A DNA stretch of 40,564 bases from positions 1 through 40,564 of IMG/VR virus record IMGVR_UViG_3300033128_000024. One strand, given 5' to 3'. Positions 17,250 through 20,093 of the stretch are shown here, piece by piece. The DNA is from a virus. The notes below the pieces were generated by a model that saw only the letters and a program-made list of their open reading frames with translations, had not been told where the DNA came from and searched no databases. The first letter of the stretch is position 1. Each line of letters starts with the position of its first letter. A program made the position numbers and the translations under genes.

Positions 17250-17284
17250 ACTCATCTGTTCAAATGGCAGGTGGGTCTTTTTTT
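17249..17284 (+). terminator. Intrinsic terminator after the recombinase-like gene
   Basis: The stem arms are gactcatctg and caggtgggtc, followed by T7. The hairpin contains AATGGCA (17263-17269). Confidence 0.7.
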
Positions 17285-17392
17285 GTGCTCTTTTTCACCA
17301 GCTAACCATAACGAGAAAATGTCCAACTCATTTTAGGGAAATGGCTGAAAAGCAAGAGGGACAAAGGATTCAGCGATTCCCTGAGTTAGACA

Positions 17393-17431
17393 CAATAATA
17401 GATATGGTGAATTGGTGGATTGTGTGGATAA
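17393..17431 (+). repeat. Upstream cassette repeat, copy 1 (contains the Trp-rich mini-ORF start MVNWWIVWI)
   Basis: 36/39 identity to 18441-18479; the core atatggtgaa[t/a]tggtggattgtgtggataa is 29/30. TTGAAA-17-TAAATT follows at 17435-17463. Confidence 0.8.
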
Positions 17432-17493
17432 TGGTTGAAATTAGAAAATTAATAATGTAAATTACATTCATAAAGTCAATTTAGGAGGATACA

Positions 17494-18306
17494 ATGACAA
17501 GTAGAGATTGGAAATGGACAGTAAGTGTCTTGATAGGTTTGATAGTCTTATTATTAACCTATAATTTATGGGGTAAACAAGACTCCATTATAGATGTTAT
17601 TTCTATAGGAAGCGGCATAACATCAATTGTATTAGCAATTCTAGCAATTATTATGTCTTTGTTCGAAGGCTTTAAAACTCACTTTAGAGAAGAGAAGTTA
17701 GATGCGAATATTAGTAAATTAGAAAAAAATCTTATAAGTATGGAAAATATCATAGTGGAAGGAAATAATTCTACACATAACAAAATAGAGGACATGGTTA
17801 AAATGTATAAGGATTTTGAGGGAAGTCCTGATTCGAAGGCAATTTACAATGAGCAATTAAAAGATGAAGAGAAACAAGATGTTAATAATAAGAGTGAAGA
17901 GGGGAAAGGAGGTACAACTTCAATCAAACAAGCAAAGAAGAAAGTTAGAAATAAAGTATTTGAGCCTGAAATTAGACAAGGAGGTATTTACCAAGTGGAC
18001 TCTAGAGTTAGTGACGATGGAAACTCGTACTATTTGGTAATTAGCAATGATACCTCAAATAAATATTCTCGTTCAGTAGGGGTAGTAAAGTTAACAAATC
18101 GAATTAAAGAGGGTTCATTGCCAACTCATGTTCTTATAGAAAAGTCGATATTAAAGACGGAAATGGACTATTTTGCTGCATGTGAAATTATTCGCACAAT
18201 CTCCAGAAGGAGGTTGGTAAATAAAGTTGCCGATTTAGACAAATTTAAAATGAAACAAATAATGATTGCTTTGAAAGTTTATTTAGGTTTTTTTAAAACT
18301 TCGTGA
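17494..18306 (+). CDS. Membrane-anchored MazF/PemK-like toxin-domain protein (2 TM, charged linker, C-terminal MazF-like domain)
   Basis: RBS TAGGAGGA precedes the start. The TM helices are VSVLIGLIVLLLTYNLW and IGSGITSIVLAILAIIMSLF. The C-terminus is GGIYQVD...YYLVISND...LPTHVLIE...CEIIRTISRRRLVNKVADLDKFKMKQIMIALKVYLGF, which parallels the MazF/EndoA motifs LPTHVEI and EQIRTIDKQRL. Confidence 0.7.
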   Translation: MTSRDWKWTVSVLIGLIVLLLTYNLWGKQDSIIDVISIGSGITSIVLAILAIIMSLFEGFKTHFREEKLDANISKLEKNLISMENIIVEGNNSTHNKIEDMVKMYKDFEGSPDSKAIYNEQLKDEEKQDVNNKSEEGKGGTTSIKQAKKKVRNKVFEPEIRQGGIYQVDSRVSDDGNSYYLVISNDTSNKYSRSVGVVKLTNRIKEGSLPTHVLIEKSILKTEMDYFAACEIIRTISRRRLVNKVADLDKFKMKQIMIALKVYLGFFKTS

Positions 18307-18314
18307 GTTATAAA

Positions 18315-18382
18315 AATGGCACATTTTTGGCACTATCTTGGCAAAGCATTTTGTCTCAGAGCGGTTATGATGGTATTAGGTG
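18315..18382 (+). repeat. Downstream cassette repeat, copy 1 (68 nt)
   Basis: 60/68 identity to 19244-19311. It starts with AATGGCA, 9 nt after the stop codon. Confidence 0.85.
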
Positions 18383-18394
18383 ATAAGTTGAAGA

Positions 18395-18422
18395 GCGGCT
18401 TCCATTGTGGAACCGCTTTTTT
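18395..18422 (+). terminator. Intrinsic terminator of cassette 1
   Basis: The stem arms are gcggcttcca and tggaaccgc, followed by T6. Confidence 0.8.
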
Positions 18423-18440
18423 ATTGGCAAGTGAATGGAG

Positions 18441-18479
18441 CATTAATATATATGGTGAAATGGTGGATTGTGTGGATAA
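18441..18479 (+). repeat. Upstream cassette repeat, copy 2 (mini-ORF MVKWWIVWITKSV)
   Basis: See 17393-17431. TATAAT lies at 18489-18494, just downstream. Confidence 0.8.
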
Positions 18480-18514
18480 CTAAAAGTGTATAATAATAGT
18501 TAAGGAGGAATAAA

Positions 18515-19243
18515 ATGAGTGATCTTGTTGGAAATTTAAAAACAATATTAGAGAAATTAAAAAATCACAATAGGAGTTATTCACAATTAAAAAGCGATAT
18601 TTTTGATAATGACAATGTTCAATTAATAGTAGAGACTTCTGGAATTGCAAAGACTTTATATAAATCATATAAGTTTGGCAGCATGTTAAAATTTAGAGCA
18701 TTTTTAAATGGATTTAGCATGAACGAAGATCCTACACAAGCTCAACTAGAAAAATTAGAAAAATATATTTCTGTCGATGATGAGAAAGTCGAATTTATAA
18801 GTAATTTTTTTTCAAATATATTGTTATCTAATTCAAGTAAAGCATGTGTCATAATGGGGACCATTTTAAAAGATATTGTAGATAAGGAAAGTGTTGTTAA
18901 ACATGAAGATTTAATTGCGATCAATGCATTAAAAGAATTTTATGATGTGGATATTGTAAATTTTAATATTATAGAATCAGTATTTATTGACAAGTCAGAA
19001 GAGAAAATAGGTTTGACAGACATTCTTTTTAAGATAAAACATAATGACTTAGATGATTTAAGTGTTCTAATGACCTTAGATAAAGCTGCAGCAACTCAAT
19101 TATTATTTGTAACTACATCGGTTGACATGTCTACAGAGGTAAACAAATTTGAGAATAGAAGAAAAGAAGCAGATAATTTTTATGTAATGACGTCTGGAGG
19201 AAAGGTATTAACGAAGTACATTAACAGAATTTCAGAACTCTAG
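18515..19243 (+). CDS. Hypothetical cytoplasmic protein (242 aa), cassette 2 cargo
   Basis: RBS TAAGGAGGA precedes the start. The gene is AT-rich and no family was recognised. Confidence 0.6.
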   Translation: MSDLVGNLKTILEKLKNHNRSYSQLKSDIFDNDNVQLIVETSGIAKTLYKSYKFGSMLKFRAFLNGFSMNEDPTQAQLEKLEKYISVDDEKVEFISNFFSNILLSNSSKACVIMGTILKDIVDKESVVKHEDLIAINALKEFYDVDIVNFNIIESVFIDKSEEKIGLTDILFKIKHNDLDDLSVLMTLDKAAATQLLFVTTSVDMSTEVNKFENRRKEADNFYVMTSGGKVLTKYINRISEL

Positions 19244-19311
19244 AATGGCATAATTTTAGCACGATCTTGGCAAAACGTTTTGTCTGAGAGAGGTTATGAT
19301 GGTATTAGGTG
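19244..19311 (+). repeat. Downstream cassette repeat, copy 2 (68 nt)
   Basis: It starts with AATGGCA immediately after stop codon 19241-19243. Confidence 0.85.
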
Positions 19312-19327
19312 TAAATTAAGATTTAGA

Positions 19328-19361
19328 ACGTCGTCTCCTTTAAGTAAGGGGACGTTTTTTT
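19328..19361 (+). terminator. Intrinsic terminator of cassette 2
   Basis: acgtc..cc pairs with ggggacgt, followed by T7. The sequence is unrelated to the cassette 1 terminator. Confidence 0.7.
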
Positions 19362-19410
19362 ATTCGGATTTTCTAATTCCTGTCGATATAAAGACAGGAG
19401 GTTTTTAGAA

Positions 19411-20034
19411 ATGAAAAAGTCGAATATGTATTCAAATACTGTTTTCTTTATTATTATTATTTCTTTACTATTAGGTGACCTTATTATTTACACAGGATTA
19501 TTGAATTTGTTTTTTGAAGAGAAGGAAACAATGTGGGCTGGAATAATAGGTTTCACTGGTGCGGTTTTAGGTGGGGGAATAACTTATTATGGTATTAGAA
19601 TGCAATTAAAACATAGAGATAGGGAATTATTTTTGCAAACGGTACACATTAAAATGGAGACTTGTCAAGAATTTATAAGGAAATATTTTAATTATCAAAC
19701 CTTGGCATATGGCGGATTGGAGATTTCAAGAAATTTAGATAATGAAAAACGCGGAAAATTTTTAAGTAATCAATCTTATTTAATTCCAGAATTTACAGAG
19801 CTTATATTTCAAGATAGGGCCGCTTACATGAGTGTTCTCGATTATGAATCTGCTGAAAAGGCAAAAGAAATTCGTACCTCATTAAATAAAAAAGTGACAA
19901 CATTGGGTAAGGTAAAAAAACACATAGACTACGTTGAAGCTTTTGAGGAGATTGAGCAGTTTTGTCTTATATTTCATAAAACTTTTGAGCAACTTGAAAA
20001 CAAGTATATTGAACTTAAAAAATTCAATAAATAA
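19411..20034 (+). CDS. Hypothetical membrane protein (2 N-terminal TM helices plus a helical cytoplasmic domain)
   Basis: RBS GACAGGAGG precedes the start. The TM helices are VFFIIIISLLLGDLIIYTGLL and WAGIIGFTGAVLGGGITYYGI. Confidence 0.6.
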   Translation: MKKSNMYSNTVFFIIIISLLLGDLIIYTGLLNLFFEEKETMWAGIIGFTGAVLGGGITYYGIRMQLKHRDRELFLQTVHIKMETCQEFIRKYFNYQTLAYGGLEISRNLDNEKRGKFLSNQSYLIPEFTELIFQDRAAYMSVLDYESAEKAKEIRTSLNKKVTTLGKVKKHIDYVEAFEEIEQFCLIFHKTFEQLENKYIELKKFNK

Positions 20035-20052
20035 AAAGTTTGAATACTAATG

Positions 20053-20073
20053 GCATCCTTCGGGGTGCTTTTT
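20053..20073 (+). terminator. Intrinsic terminator closing the accessory island
   Basis: Stem-loop gcatcc-ttcg-gggtgc followed by T5. AATGGCA lies at 20049-20055. Confidence 0.7.
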
Positions 20074-20093
20074 ATTTTGGGGAGGGACACAAC

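What the first reader, a model, noticed from the sequence alone, without database searches (positions are those of the whole stretch)
17250..20076. Accessory island built from repeated cassette flanks with swapped cargo, between the late regulators and HNH/terminase
After the tyrosine-recombinase-like gene (stop 17249) the sequence becomes visibly more AT-rich. By eye it is about 30% GC, against about 40-45% in the flanking modules. The island carries three unrelated ORFs (17494-18306, 18515-19243, 19411-20034), each closed by its own hairpin and T-run terminator.

The first two units share one architecture:
- a 39-nt upstream repeat (17393-17431 vs 18441-18479, 36/39 identical);
- an unrelated cargo ORF;
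- a 68-nt downstream repeat (18315-18382 vs 19244-19311, 60/68 identical);
- terminators that are not homologous to each other.

Conserved flanks around different cargo are the pattern expected of an exchange hotspot for accessory genes, such as defence or superinfection-exclusion genes. None of the three proteins resembles a virion, replication or packaging function. Two have N-terminal membrane anchors and one carries a toxin (MazF-like) domain.
Basis: partly seen in the sequence, partly recalled or inferred. Interest (0 to 1): 0.85.

Follow-up and report, generated by a model that had tools for sequence, protein, structure and literature searches.

The report
Prophage hotspot for swapped accessory genes
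This AT-rich stretch is the gene-swapping hotspot of a phi105-like Bacillus prophage: conserved non-coding control elements between the late regulators and the DNA-packaging genes bracket fixed slots whose genes differ from phage to phage, which makes it a useful but not unprecedented place to look for new defence genes.

Summary
The island 17250-20076 is 30.8% GC against about 40% in the flanks. Both repeat pairs and all three terminators are real.

The interpretation (an exchange hotspot) is supported. In 80 related prophages the interval from the recombinase-like gene (rec) to HNH varies from 166 to 5909 nt. It holds 193 cargo proteins in 99 families, including known defence-type proteins. 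The window's three genes recur in only 1-2 of 79 relatives.

One correction: the repeats are not cassette-borne sites. They are copies of the phage backbone's own control elements.
- UP is the 3' end of a ~130-nt dyad-symmetric region that follows the arpU-rec operon. It is also recognisable in phi105, B. cereus-group and Streptococcus phages.
- DN is a 70-nt element with three phased GGCA repeats and an invariant TAnnAT box. An intrinsic terminator follows it in most loci.

Cargo occupies fixed slots: UP-to-DN, and DN-terminator-to-HNH. Here the DN-terminator-UP junction is duplicated, which gives two first-type slots. Slot fidelity and mosaic patterns point to homologous recombination in the conserved flanks, not integron-like capture.

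The cargo is a 2TM-MazF fusion plus two proteins of unknown function that co-occur. Defence function is untested. This is a new member of a known kind; interest is moderate.

The parts
16255..16710 (+). arpU: ArpU-family late (packaging/lysis) transcriptional activator
   Evidence: NCBIfam TIGR01637, 143 bits against a cut-off of 43; PHROG 248 transcriptional activator.
16707..17249 (+). rec: 180-aa tyrosine-recombinase-like protein (catalytic domain only), overlapping the arpU stop codon
   Evidence: Pfam Phage_integrase E 2e-23. It aligns to the XerA catalytic domain, and R, HxxR, H and Y are visible. Its DNA is matched in 61-72 of 79 related loci.
17248..17278 (+). Intrinsic terminator of the arpU-rec operon
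   Evidence: 13-bp stem followed by a T-run.
17294..17431 (+). CR: conserved dyad-symmetric control region. Its last 39 nt (17393-17431) are UP copy 1, with three 7-nt direct repeats GGTGAAT, GGTGGAT and TGTGGAT.
   Evidence: Matched in 54-56 of 79 loci. 74.8% of cells are paired against 34-40% when the partner is slid, with compensatory pairs. Conservation is at least 0.89 up to the last base and 0.46 at +1. The region is recognisable in phi105, BtCS33 and phage 315.1.
17494..18306 (+). Cargo A (slot 1a): two N-terminal transmembrane segments plus a C-terminal MazF/PemK endoribonuclease domain
   Evidence: Only 6 protein clusters have this full-length architecture. Its DNA is found in 1 of 79 loci.
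18313..18382 (+). DN copy 1: GGCA at 18318-21, 18329-32 and 18340-43 (11-nt phase); TAnnAT box at 18366-71
   Evidence: nhmmer E 3.7e-24. The invariant columns are in alignment A2. The DN profile matches most of the 80 loci, always on the + strand.
18390..18424 (+). Intrinsic terminator coupled to DN copy 1
   Evidence: -17.2 kcal/mol, z = -3.0. A hairpin plus T-run follows DN in most lineages, with different sequences.
18441..18479 (+). UP copy 2: partial duplicate of the 3' end of CR, heading the second slot-1 unit
   Evidence: The same DN-terminator-UP junction occurs in L003 and, more diverged, in L010/L026, with other cargo.
18515..19243 (+). Cargo B (slot 1b): 242-aa protein of an unannotated family of about 240-aa proteins; mostly helical with a winged-helix-like C-terminus
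   Evidence: 14 close clusters, all those with a source name from the B. pumilus group. 222 clusters at 50% identity by profile search. AlphaFold2 mean pLDDT 71; best Foldseek E 0.014.
19242..19311 (+). DN copy 2 (second GGCA degraded to AGCA)
   Evidence: nhmmer E 1.1e-21; alignment A2.
19332..19354 (+). Intrinsic terminator after DN copy 2 (not homologous to the first)
19377..19400 (+). Slot-2 leader hairpin: loop CGATATAAA; its 3' arm is the Shine-Dalgarno sequence of cargo C
   Evidence: The 91-nt stretch that contains it and the preceding terminator folds at z = -4.3. The same loop with different, complementary stems occurs in a dozen or so of the distinct relatives folded.
19411..20034 (+). 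Cargo C (slot 2): two N-terminal transmembrane helices (highly conserved) plus a variable helical-bundle domain
   Evidence: 9 clusters, all those with a source name from the B. pumilus group; alignment A5; model; no PDB match. It co-occurs with a B-like gene in L102/L103.
20052..20069 (+). Terminator closing the island; homology to relatives resumes here
20094..20805 (+). Right backbone: a conserved 118-aa gene (probable GTG start at 20094) and HNH endonuclease 20416-20805, followed by terS at 21009

Best explanation
The segment is the accessory-gene (moron/defence) hotspot of a phi105-like temperate phage integrated in a Bacillus pumilus-group genome.

It lies inside the non-coding control region between the late-regulator operon (arpU plus a small tyrosine-recombinase-like gene, rec) and the late packaging genes (HNH, terS, terL). 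That region has two backbone elements:
- CR/UP, a ~130-nt dyad-symmetric block that ends in three heptamer repeats.
- DN, made of three GGCA repeats in 11-nt phase plus a TAnnAT box, followed in most loci by an intrinsic terminator.

Cargo genes sit in fixed slots: slot 1 between UP and DN, slot 2 between the DN-terminator and HNH. Most carry their own ribosome-binding site and a sigma-A-like -10 box. In this window the DN-terminator-UP junction is duplicated, which gives two slot-1 units and therefore the repeated flanks.

Shown:
- The flanks are conserved backbone sequence.
- The cargo is hypervariable and slot-faithful.
- Closely related backbones carry different cargo, and identical cargo sits in divergent backbones.

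Inferred:
- Cargo is exchanged as alleles by homologous recombination in the conserved flanks during co-infection or infection of lysogens.
- UP and DN are conserved because they are ArpU-type activator sites or late-promoter elements.
- The terminators keep cargo transcripts made in the lysogen from running into the late operon.
- The cargo acts in the lysogen against other phages (abortive infection or exclusion). Cargo A would be a membrane-tethered MazF-type RNase, and B plus C a two-gene unit of unknown mechanism.
For: Conserved flanks and variable content:
- UP and DN recur at the same position with unrelated ORFs between them.
- The DN profile matches most of the 80 loci, always on the + strand and usually once per locus.
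- UP lies 151-155 nt after the rec stop in most loci, even at 63% rec identity.
- The interval is 166-5909 nt long and holds 99 cargo families in 74 loci.
- Conservation profile: rec 61-72, CR/UP 54-56 and DN 20-25 of 79 loci, against 1-2 for the cargo.
- The boundaries are sharp.

Exchange by recombination:
- Slot fidelity: the 18 families with at least 3 members keep one slot, with a single possible exception among about 100 occurrences.
- Of 331 locus pairs with rec at least 95% identical, 324 differ in cargo set. Conversely, slot-2 cargo is 100% identical between loci whose rec is only 66% identical.
- A prophage without rec (L102) carries UP-like, a B-like gene, DN and a C-like gene upstream of HNH.

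Cargo content:
- Defence-type domains occur among the cargo.
- The MazF domain of cargo A is confirmed.

Regulatory reading of the flanks:
- ArpU, RinA and LtrC activators bind blocks of direct 7-nt repeats just distal to the activator gene, and the DNA beyond the block is unrelated between phages (PMC3753634).
- phi105 itself has the same layout.
Against: - No expression, binding or phenotype data exist. The promoter assignments rest on consensus-level matches only, and the scan found 25 sites against 18.5 expected.
- The three window proteins hit no PADLOC model.
- Most cargo families have no annotation, so 'defence' is an extrapolation from a minority.
- Which of CR/UP and DN is the ArpU-responsive late promoter is unresolved. 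A terminator 10-20 nt after the DN box is awkward for a simple promoter.
- Sharp boundaries are also what site-specific insertion would give.
- The role of the adjacent recombinase-like gene is unexplained.
Confidence: 0.72

Rival explanations
1. Integron-like system. The small tyrosine recombinase encoded immediately upstream uses CR/UP and DN as recombination sites to capture and exchange gene cassettes site-specifically.
For: - A recombinase-like gene with all catalytic residues sits directly next to the array.
- CR is a conserved imperfect palindrome with compensatory changes.
- Conservation ends within one base at the UP end, across 46 different downstream sequences.
- Tandem units share flanks.
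Against: - Cargo families keep one slot, whereas integron cassettes reorder.
- UP and DN are built from direct, not inverted, repeats. DN has no significant fold (z = -0.6).
- UP/DN flank a B-like gene in a prophage that has no rec.
- rec homologues sit in the same place in loci with no island at all (L091, L095).
- rec homologues also lie next to late activators in Streptococcus, Listeria and Clostridium phages.
- Integron-integrase models score far below their cut-offs (32.7 against 265 bits).
- Cargo carries its own promoter-like -10 boxes.
Confidence: 0.06
2. Permissive-site model. UP and DN are purely cis-regulatory elements. Each cargo arrived by independent illegitimate insertion into a tolerant leader region, and the flanks play no part in exchange.
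For: - UP and DN are conserved in loci with little or no cargo between them (L036, L050, L089, L063, L066).
- Cargo brings its own promoter and ribosome-binding site.
- GC content differs from the backbone.
Against: - The same cargo families recur in the same slot with the same junctions in backbones whose rec is only 63-66% identical to that of the window (or of the partner locus).
- Near-identical backbones differ in cargo in 324 of 331 pairs.
- That turnover rate and pattern fit allelic replacement through flanking homology better than repeated de novo insertion at one nucleotide.
Confidence: 0.12
3. The cargo is not defence. The MazF fusion and its neighbours serve the phage itself, for example as prophage addiction/stabilisation, host shut-off, or timing of lysis during the lytic cycle.
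For: - The genes lie downstream of a putative ArpU-responsive element, so they could be late-expressed.
- MazF-type toxins act in addiction modules.
- No PADLOC hit for the three proteins.
Against: - The genes are dispensable: they are absent from nearly all relatives, and some loci have an empty interval.
- Known defence proteins occupy the same slots elsewhere.
- Each gene is followed by a terminator and preceded by a sigma-A-like -10, which is the moron layout.
- In L031 gene B is frameshifted in an otherwise intact island.
Confidence: 0.15

Closest known systems
Hotspots of anti-phage systems in P2-like prophages and P4-like satellites (Rousset et al. 2022, PMC9122126; listed)
   Same: A fixed position in a temperate-phage genome, bounded by conserved sequence, holds highly diverse, mostly small gene sets. 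These include known defence systems and many unknowns, and turnover between close relatives is fast.
   Different: - Different phage lineage and host: phi105-like siphophages of Bacillus.
- The slots are bounded by non-coding control elements rather than core genes.
- They lie inside the late-regulatory region.
- There are two to three slot types, each with its own cargo repertoire.
- Defence activity has not been tested here.
Morons of lambdoid phages (Hendrix/Juhala concept; from my own knowledge, not from a paper read here)
   Same: Extra genes with their own promoter and terminator and a deviating base composition are inserted between genes that are adjacent in relatives. In L091 and L095, rec is followed directly by HNH.
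   Different: Here the promoter-side and terminator-side flanks are themselves conserved across unrelated cargo and can be duplicated to add slots. Classical morons bring unrelated flanks.
Ltr (RinA/ArpU/LtrC) binding block upstream of the late operon (Quiles-Puchalt et al. 2013, PMC3753634)
   Same: A conserved block with direct 7-nt repeats lies just distal to the late-activator operon. It is shared by phages with the same activator, and the DNA immediately downstream is unrelated. An ArpU-family gene sits directly upstream.
   Different: - In the studied phages the block directly precedes terS. Here a recombinase-like gene intervenes upstream.
- Cargo slots, a second repeat element (DN) and obligatory terminators lie between the block and HNH/terS.
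- Binding has not been tested.
Integrons
   Same: A tyrosine-recombinase-family gene lies next to an array of single-gene units that share flanking sequence.
   Different: There are no attC-like palindromes. Cassettes keep their position and have their own promoters. The recombinase lacks integron-integrase features, and the flanks also occur without it.
MazEF/PemIK type II toxin-antitoxin modules
   Same: The C-terminal 110 residues of cargo A align end to end with solved MazF toxins.
   Different: There is no upstream antitoxin gene. The toxin domain is fused to about 155 residues containing two transmembrane segments. The full architecture is rare (6 clusters).

Membership tests
Phage moron / accessory-gene hotspot | Lies between genes that are adjacent in related phages | tested here: met
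   The rec-to-HNH distance is 166 nt in L091 and 199 nt in L095, against 2791 nt to the next conserved gene here (3167 nt to HNH).
Phage moron / accessory-gene hotspot | Content differs among close relatives while the flanks are conserved | tested here: met
   99 families in 74 loci; 324 of 331 pairs with rec at least 95% identical differ in cargo.
Phage moron / accessory-gene hotspot | Own terminator and own promoter for each unit | tested here: inconclusive
   The terminators are clear. The promoters are only consensus-level -10 matches 17-21 nt after UP.
Phage moron / accessory-gene hotspot | Deviating base composition | tested here: met
   30.8% against about 40% GC.
Phage moron / accessory-gene hotspot | Expressed from the repressed prophage | not testable with these tools
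   Needs RNA-seq of a lysogen.
Prophage defence hotspot | Known defence systems among the cargo at the same position | tested here: met
   PADLOC hits to NsnB 5e-65, PD-T7-4 7e-60, HEC-03B 2e-44, RTasSLATT 3e-33 and AriA 1.5e-28 among the 99 family representatives.
Prophage defence hotspot | The genes of this window protect against phage | not testable with these tools
   No PADLOC hit for the three proteins; needs challenge assays.
Integron | IntI-type integrase | tested here: not met
   TIGR02249 scores 32.7 bits against a cut-off of 265; PRK15417 scores 16.7 against 435. The protein is 180 aa and consists of the catalytic domain only.
Integron | attC-like imperfect palindrome 3' of each cassette | tested here: not met
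   DN consists of direct GGCA repeats. The fold z-score is -0.6 for copy 1 including its terminator.
Integron | Cassettes can occupy any position in the array | tested here: not met
   The 18 families with at least 3 members each keep one slot; the only apparent exception is one F15 member called before UP.
Type II TA toxin MazF/PemK | MazF/PemK fold domain | tested here: met
   Pfam PF02452 scores 51.4 bits against a cut-off of 23.1. PDB 2mf2 E 8e-16 over residues 159-266.
Type II TA toxin MazF/PemK | Cognate antitoxin gene immediately adjacent in one operon | tested here: not met
   No small ORF lies between UP and the start codon, or between the stop codon and DN. The domain is fused to a 2TM region.
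Ltr/ArpU late-promoter binding block | ArpU-family activator encoded directly upstream | tested here: met
   TIGR01637, 143 bits.
Ltr/ArpU late-promoter binding block | Conserved block with about three direct 7-nt repeats distal to the activator operon, with unrelated DNA beyond it | tested here: met
   UP has GGTGAAT, GGTGGAT and TGTGGAT, and conservation then drops from at least 0.89 to 0.46. DN has three phased repeats of TGGCA(C/A).
Ltr/ArpU late-promoter binding block | Activator binds the repeats and switches on late transcription | not testable with these tools
   Needs EMSA and reporter assays as in PMC3753634.
FimB/FimE-type invertible promoter switch | Both orientations of the segment between the inverted repeats occur among genomes | tested here: not met
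   The CR core has the same orientation in every sequence that aligned (66, 39) and in the B. cereus and Streptococcus-type sets as read by eye.

The most novel reading that the evidence does not exclude
The small tyrosine-recombinase-like protein that accompanies ArpU acts on the dyad-symmetric CR/UP element (and perhaps on DN) to move or exchange the neighbouring gene units. That would make this a phage-borne, integron-like cassette platform embedded in the late-control region.

A milder version is that rec, CR and the DN-terminator form an undescribed late-transcription switch with obligatory terminator read-through, and the defence genes are nested inside it.
Probability: 0.07. Interest if true: 0.85.

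Novelty: new member of a known kind. Interest (0 to 1): 0.5.

Why it matters
- The two conserved non-coding anchors (UP/CR and DN-terminator) give a simple handle for mining Bacillus and related Firmicutes prophages for accessory genes. In this sample most cargo families have no annotation, and some sit beside recognised defence proteins.
- The slot structure suggests a natural, insulated landing pad for cargo in phi105-type vectors.
- The conserved layout raises a concrete, testable question about late-gene control in ArpU-type phages: how does late transcription get past terminators that lie upstream of HNH/terS in most of these phages?

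Tried and rejected
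- Rfam: no family at gathering score in the whole window, and only chance-level hits in the island.
- RNA-structure reading of CR: RNAalifold gave no consensus. The window's own fold does show covariation on the alignment. However, G.U against A.C counts give no consistent strand (148 against 84; helix 1 is 68:12, helix 3 is 9:25). In one Streptococcus-type clade the half-sites are direct rather than inverted. I therefore prefer protein-binding repeats and leave RNA open.
- DN as a sigma-54 promoter (TGGCAC-N5-TTGGCA): rejected as the main reading. The match is a by-product of three phased repeats, and copy 2 has AG at -24.
- CCGATAT as a sigma-D -10: no properly spaced -35.
- DN or its terminator as the cos site: the phi105 cohesive-end sequence I recalled (GCGCTCC, from memory) is not there. 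By analogy with other HNH-dependent cos phages (my own knowledge), cos more likely lies between HNH and terS.
- Invertible-switch idea: no inverted CR core in any locus.
- Megablast against phage records found almost nothing. Protein-level and distant DNA searches were needed.
- Structure searches for B242 and C207 gave no match at E <= 0.001.
- Pfam on distant B242 relatives was uninformative.

Full report
**1. Observation**

- The island 17250-20076 is 30.8% GC. The left flank is 40.3% and the right flank 39.7%.
- The repeat finder returns the 39-nt UP pair (17393-17431 / 18441-18479, 92%) and the 68-nt DN pair (18315-18382 / 19244-19311, 88%). Each pattern occurs exactly twice in the window and never in 100 shuffles.
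- The three ORFs have GGAGG-type ribosome-binding sites.
- Terminators follow at about 18390-18424, 19332-19354 and 20052-20069. The first has a bulged stem: -17.2 kcal/mol, z = -3.0.
- ORF1 has two N-terminal hydrophobic segments and a C-terminal MazF/PemK domain.
- ORF3 has a hydrophobic N-terminus, modelled as two helices, and a helical bundle.
- ORF2 has neither feature.

**2. Context**

Upstream lie three genes:
- an Xpf-type sigma-like gene (15770-16258);
- an ArpU-family late activator (16255-16710);
- a 180-aa tyrosine-recombinase-like gene, here called rec (16707-17249), which overlaps the arpU stop codon and retains R, HxxR, H and Y.

Downstream come a conserved 118-aa gene, then HNH, terS and terL.

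The closest named phage is phi105. Its rec is 84% identical, and the non-coding DNA after rec is 74.5% identical. The genomes that carry the DN pattern belong to the Bacillus pumilus group.

**3. Comparative test**

*Same flanks, other cargo.* Exact-pattern scans of viral contigs found UP and DN in 14 related prophages. They always lie between arpU-rec and HNH/terS, with unrelated ORFs between them.

*Variation across 80 loci.* I then fetched 80 loci through their rec homologue.
- The rec-to-HNH interval ranges from 166 to 5909 nt.
- It holds 193 proteins of at least 80 aa in 99 families, 68 of them singletons.
- A blastn coverage profile of the window against the other 79 loci gives 61-72 loci for rec, 54-56 for the region ending in UP, 20-25 for DN, and 1-2 for each cargo gene.
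- Pfam and PADLOC scans of one representative per family find PemK, PIN, SLATT, AbiEii-like and OLD/Gabija-like ATPases, SocA/Panacea, RelA_SpoT, Mrr, DUF4145, NsnB, PD-T7-4, HEC-03B and AriA. Most families have no annotation.

**4. What the repeats are**

They are not cassette-specific.

*UP* is the last 39 nt of a conserved non-coding region (CR, 17294-17431) that follows the rec terminator.
- UP starts 151-155 nt after the rec stop in most loci, even where rec is only 63% identical.
- Conservation stays at or above 0.89 to the final base of GTGTGGATAA and falls to 0.46 at the next base, over 46 different downstream sequences.
- CR has conserved dyad symmetry. The window copy folds at -39.6 kcal/mol (z = -3.2).
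- On 39 diverse sequences, 74.8% of cells pair, against 34-40% when the partner is slid. Compensatory pairs include CG 9 / GC 9, AU 25 / GC 9 and CG 20 / GC 12.
- The same architecture is recognisable in B. cereus-group phages (BtCS33 and 53 of 80 loci) and in Streptococcus phage 315.1 and relatives. It consists of four half-sites plus a box of the type ACAATATAAGATATGG.
- In one Streptococcus-type clade three half-sites are direct repeats, and G.U against A.C counts give no consistent strand. I therefore read CR as an array of protein-binding repeats rather than an RNA hairpin. RNA is not excluded.

*DN.* A profile of it matches most of the 80 loci, always on the + strand and usually once per locus.
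- Its invariant positions are three GGCA motifs at 11-nt spacing and a TAnnAT box 22 nt after the third.
- A GC-rich hairpin plus T-run follows 10-20 nt later in most lineages. The hairpin sequence differs between lineages, so the terminator is functionally coupled to DN.
- phi105 itself has arpU, rec, CR/UP, small ORFs, DN, terminator and HNH in that order.

*Published analogue.* In RinA/LtrC/ArpU phages, a block with direct 7-nt repeats just distal to the activator gene is required for late activation and is bound by the activator. The DNA beyond the block is unrelated between phages (PMC3753634). UP carries three heptamers (GGTGAAT, GGTGGAT, TGTGGAT) and DN carries three phased TGGCA(C/A) motifs. 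Which of the two is the ArpU site or late promoter cannot be decided from sequence.

**5. Slot structure**

- Slot 1 lies between UP and DN.
- Slot 2 lies between the DN-terminator and HNH.
- A few loci have an extra gene inserted right at the rec stop (family F8, DUF2971).
- Each cargo family with at least 3 members keeps one slot. This holds for 18 families and about 100 occurrences, with one doubtful exception.
- Slot-1 cargo usually brings a TATAAT-like box 17-21 nt after UP.
- Slot-2 cargo is often preceded by a hairpin whose loop is CGATAWAA and whose 3' arm is the Shine-Dalgarno sequence, with stems that covary (19377-19400 here).
- This window has two slot-1 units because the DN-terminator-UP junction is duplicated. 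The same junction, with other cargo, occurs in L003 and, more diverged, in L010/L026.

**6. How cargo is exchanged**

- Among 331 locus pairs with rec at least 95% identical, 324 differ in cargo set.
- Conversely, slot-2 genes are 100% identical between loci whose rec is only 66% identical.
- A prophage without rec (L102, ArpU 44% identical) carries UP-like, a B-like gene, DN and a C-like gene upstream of HNH. It also has a DN variant of its own with four TGGCG repeats.

Together with slot fidelity, this favours allelic replacement by homologous recombination in the conserved flanks. It argues against recombinase-driven, integron-like capture. Further points against the integron reading:
- Integron-integrase models score far below their cut-offs.
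- DN is not palindromic.
- rec homologues accompany late activators in phages that have no island, and in other genera.

The integron-like reading is not excluded. I put it at about 6-7%.

**7. The three proteins**

*A270*
- The MazF domain aligns with S. aureus MazF over residues 159-266.
- It is fused to a 2TM N-terminus. The hit to SLATT_5 is weak and sub-threshold (E 0.002).
- There is no adjacent antitoxin gene.
- Only six clusters share this architecture.

*B242*
- It has 14 close clusters; all those with a source name are from the B. pumilus group. A profile search finds 222 clusters at 50% identity, mostly about 240 aa and without annotation.
- The model (mean pLDDT 71) is helical with a winged-helix-like C-terminus. 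The best Foldseek E-value is 0.014.

*C207*
- It has nine clusters, an almost invariant 2TM N-terminus and a variable helical bundle, and no PDB match.

B-like and C-like genes are adjacent in another prophage type, so they may work together. None of the three proteins hits PADLOC. A defence, abortive-infection or exclusion role is an inference from position and from the neighbours' content.

**8. Verdict**

The refinement is that the 'cassette flanks' are duplicated backbone control elements.

Phage hotspots and morons are a known kind (for example PMC9122126). I found no description of this one in the paper library. Hence: new member of a known kind, moderate interest.

Three questions remain open: the function of rec, the roles of CR and DN, and how late transcription passes the DN-coupled terminator.

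Noticed in passing
window 15770-16258: The Xpf-type sigma-like gene just upstream of arpU is itself an insertion. It has no DNA match in the other 79 loci, and in 13 close relatives the gap at this point is at most about 9 nt (mostly 8) instead of 495. Four loci (L049, L074, L076, L087) have a different 532-nt insert at the same place. This looks like another variable slot.
   Followed up: partly
window 19377-19400; e.g. L028, L030, L038, L053, L082: A hairpin precedes slot-2 genes. Its 3' arm is the Shine-Dalgarno sequence and its loop is CGATAWAA. The stems differ but stay complementary across loci. It could restrict translation to transcripts that start inside the loop (own promoter) and silence read-through transcripts.
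   Followed up: partly
L021, L023-L025, L027-L029, L049, L053, L056, L073, L102 (after DN-terminator or after arpU/rec): A near-palindromic motif GTTCGACAAAWTTTGCGAA recurs immediately after terminator T-runs and upstream of slot-2 genes. It looks like an operator. It is degenerate in the window (about 19362-19376).
   Followed up: no
L102/L103 (Bacillus sp. FSL K6-2869, CP152035): A prophage without rec, whose ArpU is 44% identical, carries a B242-like and a C207-like gene side by side with UP-like and DN flanks. It also has a DN variant with four TGGCG repeats at 11-nt spacing. This hints that the repeat sequence follows the ArpU type.
   Followed up: partly
L031 / L007 (IMGVR_UViG_642791616_000002): The only relative with the same three cargo genes has gene B split into 112- and 140-aa ORFs (frameshift). 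It also has an extra 363-aa gene inserted at the rec stop. The family representative of that gene (from L027) has a DUF2971 domain.
   Followed up: no
window 20806-21008: The HNH-terS intergenic region has convergent strong hairpins on the minus strand (20876-20936). By analogy with HNH-dependent cos phages (my own knowledge), this is the likely cos region.
   Followed up: no
window 2500-3500 and 4500-8000: Two further low-GC stretches (about 32%) lie elsewhere in the prophage. They may be other accessory or lysogeny-module regions.
   Followed up: no
window 15542-15578 (and 15550-15750): A 37-nt stretch is 97% identical to phi105, in a segment just upstream of the late-regulator genes whose DNA is matched in 31-56 of 79 loci. 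No feature is annotated there in the phi105 record.
   Followed up: no
window 20040-20450: The mechanical ORF of 136 aa starts at a TTG inside the island's last terminator. Homologues of 118 aa indicate that the real start is GTG at 20094, after a GGGAGGG ribosome-binding site.
   Followed up: yes
L105-L184 (B. cereus-group prophages): 27 of 80 loci lack CR after rec and carry other sequence there instead. Among the 53 loci that have CR, the 400 nt after it fall into 13 clusters, two of them dominant. The same junction is variable there too, but less so.
   Followed up: partly
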